Both the position numbers and the translations under genes were made by a program. The notes under the pieces are model-generated. The model was given only the letters and a program-made list of their open reading frames with translations, was not told the DNA's origin and ran no database searches. From the NCBI RefSeq assembly GCF_030013205.1, contig NZ_CP122648.1: a DNA stretch of 64,000 nucleotides. One strand, 5' to 3'. Positions 5,554-44,214 of the stretch are shown in pieces (position 1 is the stretch's first letter; every line of letters starts with the position of its first letter). This DNA comes from Escherichia coli. Lineage in GTDB: Bacteria > Pseudomonadota > Gammaproteobacteria > Enterobacterales > Enterobacteriaceae.

Positions 5554-7017
5554 TTACATCTTGGTATAAGGCTTAAAGCGTTCCTGCAGCTGGCGCAACT
5601 GGTCGATGCGCGCATCGTAACGTGCTTGTTGCAGGCTGCCTAATTTCACCTGCGAACTGGCGCTACTCAACAAGGAAATAGCCTGATCGAGTCGCCCGGC
5701 GAGCGCATAACCTTCTGCTCGCGCAGCCAGTTCCTGATCGCGGTTATTTAGCGCGGCTTCCGCCTGTGCCAGTAAATCCCAGCCGTTGCTGTCATCTTTA
5801 TTATTAAAGGTGTAGCGATTCAGAATATTGGCCGCTTCTTGTGGTTGGCCGCCTTGTAGATAAGCGTTCGCCAGGTTGAGCTGCAACACTGGATTGGTGC
5901 GCAAATCACGGGCATTTTTCAGGCGATTGATCGCCTCATTGGCTTTGTTTTGCCCAAGATCGATATCAGTAGCCAGATCGAGATACCATGCGTTGCCAGG
6001 TTCTGCCGCCAGTAACGGTTGCAGCGTTTTACGCGCCTCGTCGTATTTATTGGCTTCCATCGCCTGTAAAGCACGACCATATTGTGCTGCTCGTTGCTGA
6101 CGAACGTTTCCTTTCGCCCATTCATCCAGCAAATCACTGGTGAGCTGGTTACGTCCGGAATTATACATCCCCAGTGTGCGCGCTTTCGCCAGATAGAAAT
6201 CTTCCGACGACTGTACCACCATCGGACGCATCTGATTAGCACGGTTGCGGGCATCTGCCAGACGACTTTCCGGCAACGGGTGAGTCAATAAAATTTCCGG
6301 CGGACGCGAGGAGTAACGCGCCTGATCGAGCAATTTTTCGAGGAAGGTCGGCATCGCCTGCGGATCGAATCCTGAGCGTTGCAGCACCTGAATACCAATG
6401 CGGTCCGCTTCCTGTTCATTTTGCTGGGTGAAACTGATCATCCCCTGGCGCGTTCCCGCCAGTGTACCGGTCAGCGCAGCCATCCCCGCCTGCGGACTGG
6501 CCATCGCCAGTAAAATAGAACCTAACGCGCCGACCCAGGTCAGCGGCGCGCTGCGCTGTTGATCTTCCATCGCTCGCGCCAGGTGACGTTGGGTGACGTG
6601 GGAGATTTCGTGCGCCATAACTGAAGCCAGTTGGCTTTCGTTATCGGAATAACGGAACAGGGCAGAGTGCAGCACCACGTTGCCGCCAAAGAAAGCAAAG
6701 GCGTTAATTTCGTCGTTGTTGATCAGAAAGAAATGAAACGGTGTCTTAACCGAATTGGCATGCGAAACCAGACGCATACCCAGCGAATTAATATATTGCG
6801 TTAACAGCGGGTCATTAATTAACGGCGCGCTGCCGCGTAGCTGGCGGACATAATAGTCGCCCATCTGCATTTCCTGACCAATGGAAAGCGTGCTTCCTGC
6901 GGAGGTTCCCATATCCGGCAAGGTGTCTGCGCTGTCGGCAAACGCCGGGGCTACCTGACCAATGGTCATAGCAGCAATGAGGGTTGCAACTAGGTTTTTT
7001 TTCAACTGCCTGAACAT
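5554..7017 (-). CDS. bepA: periplasmic M48 zinc metalloprotease/chaperone with TPR repeats (BepA)
   Basis: 487 aa, signal peptide, HEISH zinc motif, C-terminal TPR-like region. Confidence 0.9.
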
Positions 7018-40363: not shown

Positions 40364-40939
40364 ATGACGCAACAAATCACCCTCATTAAAGACAAAATTC
40401 TCTCCGATAACTATTTCACCCTGCACAACATTACTTACGATCTCACGCGCAAAGATGGCGAAGTTATCCGCCATAAACGTGAAGTTTACGATCGCGGTAA
40501 TGGTGCGACGATCCTCCTGTACAACGCGAAGAAAAAGACTGTGGTTCTGATTCGTCAGTTCCGTGTCGCTACCTGGGTTAATGGCAATGAAAGCGGGCAG
40601 CTGATTGAAACCTGCGCCGGGCTGCTGGATAACGACGAACCGGAAGTGTGCATTCGCAAAGAAGCGATTGAAGAGACGGGCTATGAAGTGGGCGAAGTGC
40701 GCAAATTATTTGAACTGTATATGTCGCCAGGCGGTGTGACTGAGCTAATCCACTTTTTTATCGCCGAATACAGTGACAATCAGCGCGCTAACGCCGGTGG
40801 CGGTGTCGAAGATGAAGATATTGAAGTGCTCGAGCTGCCGTTCAGCCAGGCGCTGGAGATGATCAAAACCGGCGAGATACGTGACGGTAAGACGGTGTTA
40901 TTGCTTAACTATTTGCAAATGTCACATTTAATGGACTGA
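40364..40939 (+). CDS. nudK: GDP-mannose pyrophosphatase (Nudix hydrolase)
   Basis: 191 aa starting [18 protein letters not shown]; Nudix box [22 protein letters not shown]. Confidence 0.9.
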
Positions 40940-41064
40940 AAAATAACAATAATATTTCGTTGTTTATTATTGGCTCAATCCGACAAATCTGATTGAGCCG
41001 CGCTACCTGCGCAACGAAGATACGACTTGTGCTGTTTGTTTGAACTTCTGGGGTCGTACCGTCC

Positions 41065-42108
41065 ATGCGCTATCGCATTTTCCTTCTCTTTTTTTTCGCT
41101 TTGTTGCCGACGTCTTTGGTGTGGGCGGCACCAGCGCAACGGGCGTTTTCCGACTGGCAGGTCACCTGTAATAACCAAAACTTCTGCGTGGCGCGTAATA
41201 CGGGCGATCATAACGGACTGGTGATGACCCTGAGCCGCAGCGCCGGGGCGCATACCGATGCCGTTTTACGTATTGAGCGCGGCGGGTTGAAGTCGCCGGA
41301 TGCGTCTGAAGGGGAGATAGCGCCACGGCTGCTGTTAGATGGTGAGCCGTTGGCATTAAGTGGTGACAAGTGGCGGATTTCACCATGGTTATTAGTAACG
41401 GATGATCCGGCAACCCTCACCGCGTTTTTGCAGCTGATTCAGGAAGGGAAGGCGATCACCTTACGCGACGGCAATCAGACCATTTCTCTGAGTGGCTTAA
41501 AAGCGGCGTTGTTGTTTATAGATGCTCAGCAAAAGCGCGTTGGCAGTGAAACCGCGTGGATAAAGAAAGGGGATGAACCGCCGCTCAGCGTACCGCCCGC
41601 GCCTGCGCTGAAAGAGGTCGCGGTGGTTAACCCAACGCCGACGCCACTCTCACTCGAAGAACGCAACGATTTGCTGGATTATGGAAACTGGCGGATGAAT
41701 GGTCTGCGCTGCTCGCTTGATCCGTTACGTCGTGAGGTGAATGTCACTGCGCTGACCGATGATAAAGCACTGATGATGATTAGCTGTGAGGCAGGGGCCT
41801 ATAACACCATTGATTTGGCATGGATTGTGTCGCGTAAAAAGCCGCTAGCCTCGCGCCCGGTTCGGTTGCGTTTGCCGTTCAACAATGGTCAGGAGACGAA
41901 TGAACTGGAACTGATGAACGCAACATTCGATGAGAAATCGCGTGAACTGGTGACCTTAGCGAAAGGGCGCGGATTAAGCGATTGTGGCATTCAGGCGCGC
42001 TGGCGCTTTGACGGTCAGCGTTTTCGCCTGGTGCGTTACGCCGCAGAACCCACCTGCGATAACTGGCATGGGCCAGACGCCTGGCCCACGTTATGGATCA
42101 CCCGTTAA
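41065..42108 (+). CDS. ypfG: DUF1176 periplasmic protein of unknown function
   Basis: 347 aa, cleavable signal peptide (LLPTSLVWAAP), several Cys. Confidence 0.8.
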   Translation: MRYRIFLLFFFALLPTSLVWAAPAQRAFSDWQVTCNNQNFCVARNTGDHNGLVMTLSRSAGAHTDAVLRIERGGLKSPDASEGEIAPRLLLDGEPLALSGDKWRISPWLLVTDDPATLTAFLQLIQEGKAITLRDGNQTISLSGLKAALLFIDAQQKRVGSETAWIKKGDEPPLSVPPAPALKEVAVVNPTPTPLSLEERNDLLDYGNWRMNGLRCSLDPLRREVNVTALTDDKALMMISCEAGAYNTIDLAWIVSRKKPLASRPVRLRLPFNNGQETNELELMNATFDEKSRELVTLAKGRGLSDCGIQARWRFDGQRFRLVRYAAEPTCDNWHGPDAWPTLWITR

Positions 42109-42146
42109 ACAAAATCCCAGATGCGCCCCTAAAAAGCGCACGGAGC

Positions 42147-42187
42147 GTCCCCTCGCCCCTCTGGGGAGAGGGTTAGGGTGAGGGGAA
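42147..42187. repeat. GC-rich palindromic intergenic repeat (copy 1), box-C-like
   Basis: gtcccctcgcccctctggggagagggttagggtgaggggaaca; near-identical copy at 55540..55582. Confidence 0.7.
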
Positions 42188-42210
42188 CATACAGCATCCG
42201 GCGATCACCA

Positions 42211-44214
42211 TCAGGCACCTTTCACTCCCAGCACCTTATGCGCTTTTGCCACAATATTCTCGGCGGTAAAGCCAAAGAACGGGAACAGCTTATCCGCCGG
42301 AGCAGATTCCCCATAGCCGGTCATCCCGACAATTGCCCCTTTCAGACCAACATATTTGTACCAGTAATCGGCGATGCCTGCTTCCACCGCCACGCGAGCC
42401 GCAACGTTAGAAGGCAACACCGACTCCCGATATTCCTCATCCTGGGCGTCGAAAATATCGGTCGAGGGCAGCGAAACTACGCGTACATTGCGACCTTCTC
42501 CTGCTAATTTCTCTGCCGCTTGCAGGGTGATTTCCATCTCTGAACCGGTGGCAATCAGAATAATATCCGGCTTGCCGCCGCTGTCTTTCAACACATAACC
42601 ACCACGAGCAATCTCTTTAACCTGATCCGGCGTACGTTCCACCTGGGCCAGATTCTGCCTGGAGAGGATCAGTGCCGTCGGTCCGTTGTGGCGCTCAACC
42701 GCCAGCTTCCAGCCCACCGCTGCTTCCACCTGATCGCACGGTCGCCAGGTGCTGAAATTTGGCGTTAAGCGCAGACTGGCCAGTTGCTCAACAGCCTGGT
42801 GCGTAGGACCATCTTCGCCCAGGCCAATTGAGTCGTGGGTATAAACCATAATCTGCCGCGCTTTCATCAGTGCCGCCATCCGCGCGGCGTTACGGGCGTA
42901 TTCAACAAACATCAGGAACGTCGCGGTATACGGCACAAAGCCGCCGTGGTGCGCAATGCCGTTGGCGATAGCGGTCATGCCAAATTCACGCACCCCGTAG
43001 TGAATGTAGTTGCCCGCCGGATCTTCCTTCAGCGAAACAGAACCTTTCCAGATGGTCAGGTTGCTGGGAGCCAGATCCGCCGAACCGCCGAGCAACTCCG
43101 GTAGCATAGGTCCGTAAGCGTTAAGCGTATTTTGCGAAGCCTTACGGGTAGCGATTTTCGCCGGATTCGCCTGCAATTCATTGATATATTTCTGAGTCGT
43201 TTTCTCCCAGTCCTTCGGCAAACCGCCGCTCATCCGACGGGTAAACTCTTCTGCCAGTTGCGGATGGGCCTTTTTATAGGCGGCAAACTTCTCATTCCAG
43301 CTCTGCTGCGCTTTTTCGCCTTTTTCGCGGGCATCCCAGGCGTGATAAATCTCTTTAGGGATCTCAAATGGCGGATGGTGCCAGCCCAGTTTTTGCCGTG
43401 CCAGCGCCACTTCTTCTTCCCCCAGCGGTGCGCCGTGCGCCTCTTCCTTACCTGCTTTATTCGGCGAACCAAAGCCAATTACTGTGCGGCAGATAATCAG
43501 CGACGGCTTATCTTTCACGCTTTGCGCTTCAAGGATCGCTTTCTTCACCGCCTGCGGATCGTGACCGTCGATTTCATGGATCACATGCCAGTGATAGGCT
43601 TCAAAACGTTTTGCTGTATCGTCGGTAAACCAGCCTTCGGTTTCACCGTCGATGGAAATACCGTTGTGATCGTAAAAACCAATCAGTTTGCCCAGCCCCA
43701 GCGTGCCCGCCAGCGAACAGACTTCGTGGGAAATACCTTCCATCAGGCAACCGTCGCCCATAAACACATAGGTGAAGTGATCGACAATTTCATGATCCGG
43801 CTGGTTAAACTGCGCCGCCAGTGTACGCTCTGCTATCGCCAGCCCGACGGCGTTCGCCAAACCTTGTCCAAGTGGACCGGTGGTGGTTTCAACACCTGGC
43901 GTATAACCAATCTCCGGGTGACCTGGGGTTTTTGAATGCAACTGACGGAAGTTCTTCAGCTCTTCCAGCGGCAGGTCGTAACCGGTCAGATGCAGCAAAC
44001 TGTAGAGCAGCATCGACGCGTGACCGTTGGAAAGAATAAAGCGGTCGCGATCATACCAGGTTGGGTCGGTGGGGTTATGTTTAAGAAAATCGTTCCACAG
44101 CACTTCGGCAATATCAGCCATGCCCATCGGCGCGCCGGGATGACCAGAATTGGCTTTTTGTACCGCATCCATACTGAGTGCGCGAATCGCATTGGCAAGG
44201 TCTTTTCGGGACAT
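42211..44214 (-). CDS. tktB: transketolase 2
   Basis: 667 aa starting [34 protein letters not shown] motif GDGCLMEG. Confidence 0.95.

What the first reader, a model, noticed from the sequence alone, without database searches (positions are those of the whole stretch)
41065..42108. ypfG: secreted DUF1176 protein of unknown function next to nudK and aegA
A 347-aa protein with a clear signal peptide and no recognisable catalytic motif, flanked by a terminator-like palindrome upstream (40972..41000) and the GC-rich repeat downstream. It is one of the few genes in the window without an assigned function; ypfJ and ypfH are likewise only family-level predictions.
Basis: inference. Interest (0 to 1): 0.2.

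Follow-up and report, generated by a model that had tools for sequence, protein, structure and literature searches.

The report
ypfG: Rcs-induced periplasmic protein gene
This is the well-known but still uncharacterised E. coli gene ypfG, which encodes an exported two-domain protein made during cell-envelope stress; the upstream "terminator-like" palindrome is more likely the regulator-binding site of its own promoter, so the finding is real but ordinary.

Summary
The ORF at 41065..42108 (+) is real. It is E. coli ypfG (347 aa), a full-length DUF1176 (PF06674) member lying between nudK and tktB, and it is present in 5424 of 5426 complete E. coli genomes.

Three things were added here.
- **The upstream palindrome.** It has no T-run, and its RNA hairpin is not conserved. 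Its DNA sequence, ATCCGAyrAwTCykATTGAG, is nearly invariant across 15 Enterobacteriaceae lineages. It fits the RcsB box with one mismatch and abuts a −35 (TTGAGC) followed 17 nt later by a −10 (GAAGAT). It is probably the RcsB operator of ypfG's own promoter.
- **Expression.** Published transcriptomes show strong envelope-stress induction and RcsB dependence (LolCDE inhibitor 38–44×, carbapenems, complement; 4.6× lower in an rcsB-disrupted strain).

Genome context is not conserved outside the enterics. The protein's molecular target is unknown. A role as a binder or inhibitor of peptidoglycan-cleaving enzymes is speculative.

The parts
41065..42108 (+). ypfG coding sequence (347 aa plus TAA stop), a DUF1176 family protein
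   Evidence: ORF; Pfam PF06674 E 1.5e-105; RefSeq annotation
41065..41127 (+). Sec-type signal peptide (aa 1-21, MRYRIFLLFFFALLPTSLVWA; predicted cleavage after VWA)
   Evidence: Sequence inspection; low pLDDT of 56-66 for the first 20 residues in an otherwise >90 model; a hydrophobic N-terminus in 75 of 86 homologues. The cleavage site is inferred.
41128..41574 (+). N-terminal domain (aa 22-170), IalB-like beta fold. It carries the conserved W31, C35-(D/N)-N37-x3-C41 hairpin and the SLxGLxAALLxxDxxQxR motif (L142 G144 D153 Q156 R158).
41575..41649 (+). Pro-rich interdomain linker (aa 171-195, PPLSVPPAPALKEVAVVNPTPTP)
   Evidence: No regular secondary structure in the model; poorly conserved columns
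41650..42105 (+). C-terminal domain (aa 196-347): one helix plus an antiparallel beta meander. Conserved residues are C216, C241, A245-Y246, R302-G303-x-x-D306-C307-G308, W313, F320 and C331.
40972..40999 (.). Palindrome GGCTCAATCCGA-caaa-TCTGATTGAGCC. Its core, 40979-40992 TCCGACAAATCTGA, is the probable RcsB box (one mismatch to TN(G/A)GAN4TC(T/C)NA).
   Evidence: Inverted repeat. Consensus from PMC7913699. Phylogenetic footprint. No T-run. Hairpin not conserved. RcsB binding is inferred, not shown.
40993..40998 (+). Predicted -35 hexamer TTGAGC, directly abutting the RcsB box
   Evidence: TTGAG is invariant in 15 lineages. Inference.
41016..41021 (+). Predicted weak -10 hexamer GAAGAT, 17 nt after the -35. 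The transcription start is predicted near 41028.
   Evidence: The AAGATAC block is conserved in 15 lineages between variable flanks. No experimental start-site data were available here. Inference.
41050..41053 (+). Shine-Dalgarno-like GGGG, 11 nt before the ATG
   Evidence: Nearly invariant in alignment A6
42109..42210 (.). GC-rich dispersed intergenic repeat filling the convergent ypfG/tktB gap. It can form a long hairpin.
   Evidence: Median 6 places per E. coli genome; only 830 of 5426 genomes hold >=80% of this copy in one place. Fold -36.6 kcal/mol, z -2.55. No Rfam family.

Best explanation
ypfG is a stand-alone gene for a periplasmic protein of about 36 kDa (mature), exported by the Sec pathway. 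The protein has an IalB-like beta N-domain, a Pro-rich linker and a family-specific C-domain, probably held by three disulphides (C35-C41, C216-C241, C307-C331). It is transcribed from its own sigma-70 promoter, which has a good -35 and a weak -10. The activator site is the conserved palindrome just upstream of the -35, most likely bound by phosphorylated RcsB. The protein would therefore be made when the Rcs phosphorelay senses outer-membrane, lipoprotein or peptidoglycan damage. No catalytic motif or enzyme fold was found, so it most likely works by binding an envelope component or a periplasmic enzyme rather than by catalysis. The target is unknown. Shown here: the gene, the family, the domain architecture, the conserved DNA site and the lack of conserved gene context. 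Taken from the literature: Rcs and stress induction. Inferred: RcsB binding, promoter elements, disulphide pairing, non-enzymatic binding role.
Against: The RcsB-box match has one mismatch, and the consensus is so degenerate that even exact matches are expected about 2 times per 64 kb. The sequence match alone therefore carries no statistical weight; the case rests on conservation, position and published expression. No transcription start site or RcsB binding data were available. In an iTRAQ study of Rcs-activated, lytic-transglycosylase-overexpressing MG1655, YpfG was detected but not significantly changed (log2FC 0.13 and 0.46) while Ivy rose about 38-fold (PMC10139938). The IalB link is at fold level only: none of 36 N-domains hit any Pfam family other than DUF1176, even at E<=10. 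Absence of a recognisable catalytic motif does not exclude an enzyme. Pectobacterium homologues lack the box.
Confidence: 0.6

Rival explanations
1. YpfG is a periplasmic proteinaceous inhibitor of peptidoglycan-cleaving enzymes (host lysozymes, endogenous lytic transglycosylases, or injected hydrolase toxins). It would be a further member of the Rcs-induced anti-lysozyme set alongside Ivy and MliC.
Confidence: 0.12
2. The palindrome at 40972-40999 is the transcription terminator or 3'-end stabiliser of the aegA-nudK transcript, and ypfG regulation lies elsewhere.
For: It starts 33 nt after the nudK stop codon. In E. coli it folds into a stable hairpin (-15.8 kcal/mol, z -4.5), and in Citrobacter it is also stable (-10.6).
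Against: No T-run follows it, and the terminator scan does not call it. Hairpin stability collapses in Salmonella (-4.8), Enterobacter (-2.2) and two more distant orthologous loci, although the half-site sequences stay invariant. Substitutions are not compensatory. The conserved block continues into TTGAG, which lies beyond the conserved inner arms of the repeat. The two roles are not mutually exclusive in E. coli.
Confidence: 0.15
3. ypfG is a Fur-regulated, iron-related gene, as proposed from a predicted Fur box and from STRING links to siderophore genes.
For: Huja et al. predicted a Fur box at ypfG (PMC4145685). A Klebsiella preprint lists YpfG among siderophore-linked STRING neighbours of SbmA. 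An AT-rich palindrome, CAATAATA-N10-TATTATTG, lies at 40947-40972.
Against: The best match to the 19-bp Fur consensus in the whole intergenic region is 11 of 19. That score is reached by 151 of 511 same-size tiles of the window. The AT-rich segment is deleted or divergent in Enterobacter, Kosakonia and other genera. In the same study ypfG responded to complement, not to iron-poor inactivated serum.
Confidence: 0.05
4. YpfG is an integral outer-membrane beta-barrel protein, an older sequence-based prediction quoted in the LolCDE paper.
For: [quoted passage not shown] The protein is beta-rich.
Against: The confident model has two separate globular domains with three substantial helices and a Pro-rich linker, and mostly short strands. 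The best structural match is the soluble IalB domain. Six conserved, pairwise co-lost cysteines fit a soluble periplasmic protein. Coordinates could not be inspected directly.
Confidence: 0.03

Closest known systems
DUF1176 / PF06674 (YpfG family)
   Same: Full-length match far above threshold. It has the same two-domain layout, six conserved Cys and conserved motifs as the 86 aligned homologues. The family has 1520 clusters at 50% identity, across Gamma-, Beta- and Alphaproteobacteria, with a few loci in cyanobacteria and Desulfovibrionales.
   Different: Nothing; it is the E. coli type member. The family has no known function.
IalB, invasion-associated locus B (PDB 3dtd; PF06776 / COG5342), and the IalB-domain protein RgsG of Sinorhizobium
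   Different: There is no Pfam-level sequence match. IalB proteins are single-domain, whereas YpfG adds a linker and a second, unrelated domain (one search shows no internal duplication). No role in invasion or polar growth is implied for E. coli.
Rcs-regulated periplasmic proteins Ivy and MliC (lysozyme and lytic-transglycosylase inhibitors)
   Same: These are small to medium exported proteins, induced by the same stresses (beta-lactams, Lol inhibition) and dependent on RcsB.
RcsB-activated promoters with a box adjoining the -35 (rprA, osmC, bdm type; from general knowledge and PMC7913699)
   Same: A pseudo-palindromic GA-N4-TC core lies immediately upstream of a -35, with a weak -10. Expression is RcsB-dependent.
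   Different: The left half-site reads TCCGA (C where the consensus has G/A) in every lineage. The conserved palindrome is longer (CAATCCGA...TCnGATTG) than the 14-bp box. Binding is untested.

Membership tests
DUF1176 (PF06674) | HMM score above the Pfam gathering threshold over the whole profile | tested here: met
   353.8 bits against 34.8; profile positions 1-322 of 322
DUF1176 (PF06674) | Family-wide conserved residues present (six Cys, W31, N37, D153, Q156, R158, Y246, R302, D306, G308, F320) | tested here: met
   Alignment A1 of 86 sequences
IalB family (PF06776 / COG5342) | Sequence-profile match to the IalB model | tested here: not met
   No PF06776 hit for any of 36 N-domain sequences at E<=10, nor for the full protein. 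The only supporting point is a JGI name, 'invasion protein IalB', on an N-terminal fragment.
IalB family (PF06776 / COG5342) | IalB fold | tested here: met
IalB family (PF06776 / COG5342) | Single-domain architecture of about 140-190 aa | tested here: not met
   YpfG is 347 aa with a second, unrelated domain
Direct RcsB regulon member | Expression depends on RcsB and Rcs-activating stress | not testable with these tools
   Literature only: 38-44x induction by a LolCDE inhibitor; 4.6x lower in an rcsB-disrupted strain; carbapenem induction. Counter-example at the protein level.
Direct RcsB regulon member | RcsB box TN(G/A)GAN4TC(T/C)NA in the promoter region | tested here: inconclusive
   TCCGACAAATCTGA at 40979-40992 has one mismatch. 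The consensus is too degenerate to be significant by itself. The site is, however, invariantly conserved next to the -35 in 15 lineages.
Direct RcsB regulon member | Physical binding of RcsB~P | not testable with these tools
   Needs EMSA, footprinting or ChIP
Rho-independent terminator (for the palindrome 40972-40999) | GC-rich stem-loop followed by a T/U run | tested here: not met
   The stem is followed by GCGCTACCTGCGC, and the terminator scan does not call it
Rho-independent terminator (for the palindrome 40972-40999) | Hairpin maintained in orthologous loci | tested here: not met
   -15.8 kcal/mol in E. coli against -4.8, -2.2 and -6.3 elsewhere, with z-scores near 0
Periplasmic lysozyme inhibitors (Ivy, MliC/PliC, PliG, PliI) | Sequence or fold membership in one of these families | tested here: not met
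Periplasmic lysozyme inhibitors (Ivy, MliC/PliC, PliG, PliI) | Inhibition of a lysozyme or lytic transglycosylase | not testable with these tools
   Requires purified protein
Sec-exported (SPase I) periplasmic protein | Signal peptide with n-region, h-region and A-x-A-like c-region, and no lipobox | tested here: met
   MRYR / IFLLFFFALLPTSLV / VWA-A, with no Cys before residue 35. Judged by inspection and a hydropathy heuristic only; no dedicated predictor was available.

The most novel reading that the evidence does not exclude
DUF1176/YpfG is a new structural class of Rcs-induced periplasmic inhibitor or binder of peptidoglycan-cleaving enzymes (host lysozymes, endogenous lytic transglycosylases or injected muramidase toxins). 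The IalB-like N-domain and its conserved disulphide-closed C-D/N-N-x3-C loop, or the GRGxxDCG loop of the C-domain, would act as the inhibitory element. If so, this would also give the first molecular function for the IalB fold.
Probability: 0.1. Interest if true: 0.55.

Novelty: already known. Interest (0 to 1): 0.2.

Why it matters
ypfG is one of the conserved "y-genes" of E. coli. It is repeatedly among the most strongly induced transcripts when the envelope is damaged (Lol inhibition, carbapenems, complement), yet it has no known role. Two results make it directly testable. First, its regulation is pinned to a specific conserved operator. Second, the protein is shown to be an IalB-like domain joined to a novel domain. 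Together these define the promoter mutations, the domain constructs and a short list of binding and inhibition assays. A defined function would fill a gap in the Rcs envelope-stress response and might explain the widespread IalB fold. As it stands, the finding is a correct annotation of a known uncharacterised gene and is not a surprise.

Tried and rejected
1. Sequence searches for function all returned only DUF1176 or noise: NCBIfam, PDB phmmer, PDB profile search, and Pfam scans of 36 N-domains and 40 C-domains at E<=10.
2. Foldseek against the PDB found nothing with E<0.03.
3. The AFDB libraries (afdb_sample) were not available, so no comparison with predicted structures could be made.
4. 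An internal duplication between the N- and C-domains was rejected by hhalign (probability 0.4%).
5. Conserved gene neighbourhood was tested in three sampled non-enteric loci and by all-against-all clustering of ORFs from 70 genome loci. No neighbour is shared across orders. The only multi-order clusters are antisense ORFs overlapping the gene itself. nudK, aegA, tkt and tal synteny is confined to Enterobacteriaceae.
6. The Fur-box idea was rejected: the best match is 11 of 19, no better than background.
7. The terminator reading of the palindrome was rejected.
8. Rfam found nothing in 40800-42400.
9. A profile search with the N-domain for IalB-labelled relatives returned only DUF1176 fragments.
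10. The search for related loci with the broad alignments A1 and A3 failed for lack of a conserved 7-10-column stretch. A narrower alignment, A5, worked.
11. Literature searches for b2466 and STM2474 gave nothing useful.

Full report
**1. Observation.** The ORF listing returns an ATG-initiated ORF of 347 aa at exactly 41065..42108 on the + strand. Its product matches Pfam DUF1176 (PF06674) over the entire profile, with E 1.5e-105 and 353.8 bits against a cut-off of 34.8. NCBIfam has no model for it. The 1351-bp stretch around it is 100% identical to several porcine E. coli chromosomes. Some match is found in 5425 of 5426 complete E. coli genomes, and at least 80% of the stretch in 5424. RefSeq annotates the gene order there as narQ< aegA> nudK> ypfG> <tkt <tal maeB>.

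The N-terminus MRYR-IFLLFFFALLPTSLV-VWA|AP has the classical Sec/SPase I layout, and no cysteine occurs before residue 35, so it is not a lipoprotein. 75 of 86 homologues carry a comparable hydrophobic stretch before the first conserved residue. The mature protein has 326 aa, a mass of about 36.1 kDa and a pI of about 6.4.

**2. The protein family.** An exhaustive phmmer search of 1.84 billion cluster representatives finds 1520 clusters with E<=1e-3 and 821 with E<=1e-10. A genome scan recovers members in these groups:
- Enterobacteriaceae and Pectobacteriaceae;
- Xanthomonadales and Burkholderiales;
- Sphingomonadales, Caulobacterales and other Alphaproteobacteria;
- Acinetobacter, two cyanobacteria and a Solidesulfovibrio MAG.

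An 86-sequence alignment with a mean column identity of 31% gives the following conserved positions:
- invariant: C35, C41, G308, F320;
- at least 90% conserved: W31, N37, L142, G144, A147, D153, Q156, R158, A164, G169, P177, C216, C241, A245, Y246, R302, G303, D306, C307, W313, G317, C331.

All six cysteines are present in 82 of 86 sequences. The exceptions are mostly paired losses (C216+C241 twice, C307+C331 once, and C216 alone once). This argues for disulphides C35-C41, C216-C241 and C307-C331, which is an inference. No His/Ser/Cys/acid constellation typical of a hydrolase is conserved.

**3. Structure.** AlphaFold2 with this alignment gives a confident model: mean pLDDT 93.5, pTM 0.89, with only the signal peptide below 70. 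The layout is:
- a beta-rich N-domain (about residues 22-170) ending in helices at 115-125 and 145-155;
- an unstructured Pro-rich linker (about 171-195);
- a C-domain (196-347) made of one long helix followed by an antiparallel beta meander.

hhalign shows that the two domains are unrelated.

Foldseek against the PDB found nothing significant. The AFDB libraries were unavailable. At sequence level the IalB link is not detectable with Pfam, although JGI labels an N-terminal YpfG fragment "invasion protein IalB". IalB itself has no known molecular function. An IalB-domain protein, RgsG, is an essential periplasmic protein at the growth pole of Sinorhizobium (PMC7327166).

**4. Domain fusions and gene context.**
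- A small clade (Inquilinus ginsengisoli and relatives; six clusters at 53-100% identity) carries DUF1176 followed by a C-terminal extension. Pfam PF07007 (LprI) is detected in three of the six.
- One protein fuses a DUF2127 membrane domain to DUF1176, and one carries two DUF1176 copies.
- The LprI domain is fused to MliC in M. tuberculosis LprI, but it has no proven inhibitor activity of its own. ScwA, a Salmonella LprI-domain protein, modulates MltD levels and does not protect from lysozyme (PMC7933661).

Gene context is uninformative. nudK-ypfG synteny holds in the enterics, down to orthologues of 47-50% identity. Pseudomonas, Stenotrophomonas and Burkholderiaceae loci share no neighbours. 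All-against-all clustering of 1791 ORFs from 70 genome loci finds no neighbour family conserved across orders.

**5. The upstream palindrome is a conserved DNA site, not a terminator.** The inverted repeat is real: 40972-40983 and 40988-40999, 11 of 12 complementary. In E. coli it would fold well as RNA (-15.8 kcal/mol, z -4.5). However, it is followed by GCGCTACCTGCGC rather than a T-run, and the terminator scan does not call it.

The decisive evidence is comparative. In alignments of the nudK-ypfG intergenic region from 5 and then 15 Enterobacteriaceae lineages, the flanks diverge freely or are deleted, yet several blocks are kept:
- C-ATCCGA-yrAw-TC-yk-ATTGAG is invariant or nearly so.
- After 17-18 variable bases comes a second conserved block, (G)AAGATAC.
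- Further downstream are the Shine-Dalgarno-like GGGG and the ATG.

The same core (TCCGATAAATCTGATTGAG) is present in a 47%-identity orthologue whose intergenic region is about 400 bp longer. A regular-expression scan finds it once, at the expected position, in 13 of 15 independent enteric genome loci. Of the other two, one is truncated upstream of the gene and in the other the matched region lies elsewhere in the gene. There was a single stray hit elsewhere in about 150 kb.

Hairpin stability is not conserved: Citrobacter -10.6, Salmonella -4.8, Enterobacter -2.2, L004 -6.3, and no hairpin in L006. Substitutions are not compensatory. Selection therefore acts on the DNA sequence of each half-site.

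The core TCCGACAAATCTGA (40979-40992) fits the RcsB homodimer box TN(G/A)GAN4TC(T/C)NA defined structurally and by EMSA in Salmonella (PMC7913699), with one mismatch (C at position 3). It directly abuts TTGAGC (40993-40998), a 4-of-6 match to the -35 consensus. Seventeen bases later comes GAAGAT (41016-41021), a weak -10 that keeps the critical A2, A5 and T6 in essentially all lineages. A good -35, a poor -10 and an activator site touching the -35 are the usual anatomy of an activator-dependent promoter. That anatomy would place the transcription start near 41028.

One caveat applies. The RcsB consensus is so degenerate that exact matches are expected about 2.2 times per 64 kb by chance. The sequence match adds little by itself, and the case rests on conservation, geometry and expression data.

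**6. Expression evidence from the literature.**
- ypfG is induced 38-fold and 44-fold by a LolCDE inhibitor, listed among classic Rcs genes such as ycfJ, bdm, wca, ypeC, yaiY, spy and yjbJ (PMC5105897).
- It is 4.6-fold lower in an E. coli O157 isolate with a disrupted rcsB, next to ycfJ (-25x) and ypeC (-24x) (PMC5343319).
- It is one of three unknown-function transcripts overexpressed in all ertapenem and meropenem conditions, together with ivy (bioRxiv 10.1101/2019.12.16.878389).
- It is induced by complement-active but not heat-inactivated serum (PMC4145685).
- It belongs to the 13-gene response shared by E. coli and Klebsiella recipients during RP4 conjugation, with ypeC.
- Against a simple picture: in iTRAQ proteomics of MG1655 recovering from lytic-transglycosylase overexpression, YpfG was detected but unchanged (log2FC 0.13 and 0.46) while Ivy, YjbJ, Spy and MliC rose 13-38-fold (PMC10139938).

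The Fur box proposed for ypfG is not supported. The best match to the 19-bp consensus is 11 of 19, a score reached by 30% of same-size tiles of the window, and the AT-rich segment is not conserved.

**7. Most likely mechanism.** YpfG is exported by Sec, oxidised to three disulphides and released into the periplasm. This rests on sequence and model evidence, and localisation was not tested here. Its gene has its own promoter, probably activated by RcsB~P bound at the palindrome (inferred). The protein would therefore be produced as part of the Rcs response to lipoprotein-trafficking, outer-membrane and peptidoglycan damage (literature). With no catalytic signature and two beta-rich binding-type domains, it most probably acts by binding. 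The partner is unknown.

The most attractive specific guess is an inhibitor or binder of peptidoglycan-cleaving enzymes, like its co-regulated neighbours in the regulon, Ivy and MliC. The support is circumstantial: co-regulation, a rare LprI fusion, and marginal fold resemblance to PliI and XAC2610. I give it about 0.1.

**8. Comparison and verdict.** The gene is a bona fide member of DUF1176. It is not a member of the IalB Pfam family, although its N-domain has the IalB fold. It is not a member of any known lysozyme-inhibitor family. Nothing here is unexpected for a specialist. ypfG is a known uncharacterised gene, its IalB resemblance is at least hinted at in public annotation (JGI labels an N-terminal fragment IalB), and its Rcs responsiveness is in published tables. 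The modest additions are the domain dissection, the paired-cysteine evidence, and the identification of a strongly conserved operator and promoter. Interest is low (0.2) and the novelty category is "already known".

Noticed in passing
window 42109-42210: The convergent ypfG/tktB intergenic gap is filled by a GC-rich dispersed repeat (…GTCCCCTCGCCCCTCTGGGGAGAGGGTTAGGGTGAGGGG…) with a median of 6 places per E. coli genome. Only 830 of 5426 genomes hold >=80% of this copy in one place, so the locus is polymorphic between strains. From memory it resembles the boxC-type intergenic repeats of E. coli. It has no Rfam family. In Salmonella the corresponding gap instead holds a 76-aa ORF (STM2475; L001 5173-5403).
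   Followed up: partly
window 40947-40972: An AT-only inverted repeat, CAATAATA-N10-TATTATTG, lies between the nudK stop codon and the conserved operator. It is presumably the basis of a published Fur-box prediction. The match to the Fur consensus is at background level (11 of 19), and the segment is missing in Enterobacter and Kosakonia.
   Followed up: yes
P0240, P0271-P0275 (Inquilinus ginsengisoli and relatives): A clade of proteins of about 560-570 aa fuses a complete DUF1176 to a C-terminal extension of about 200 aa; the LprI (PF07007) domain is detected in three of the six clusters. P0217 fuses a DUF2127 membrane domain N-terminally, and P0223 carries two DUF1176 copies in tandem.
   Followed up: partly
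L064, L070-L081 (Pectobacterium loci): Pectobacterium species have divergent DUF1176 homologues (24-28% identity to the probe set) that lack the ATCCGA…TCnGATTGAG operator, although Pectobacteriaceae possess an Rcs system. Their regulation may differ, or these may be paralogues.
   Followed up: no
window 6222-6235: The only exact match in the 64-kb window to the RcsB box consensus, TCGGACGCATCTGA, lies here. About 2 such matches are expected by chance. Its gene context was not examined.
   Followed up: no
L056, L068 (filamentous cyanobacteria) and L066 (Solidesulfovibrio MAG): DUF1176-like C-domain matches occur outside the Proteobacteria (31-36% identity to the probe). This suggests either a wider distribution of the family or horizontal transfer or contamination in these assemblies.
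   Followed up: no
window 41009-41070: An imperfect inverted repeat (GCGCAACGAAGATACGAC / GTCGTACCGTCCATGCGC, 78% complementary) pairs the predicted -10 and leader region with the Shine-Dalgarno and start-codon region of ypfG. If transcribed, it could occlude the ribosome-binding site. This was not analysed.
   Followed up: no
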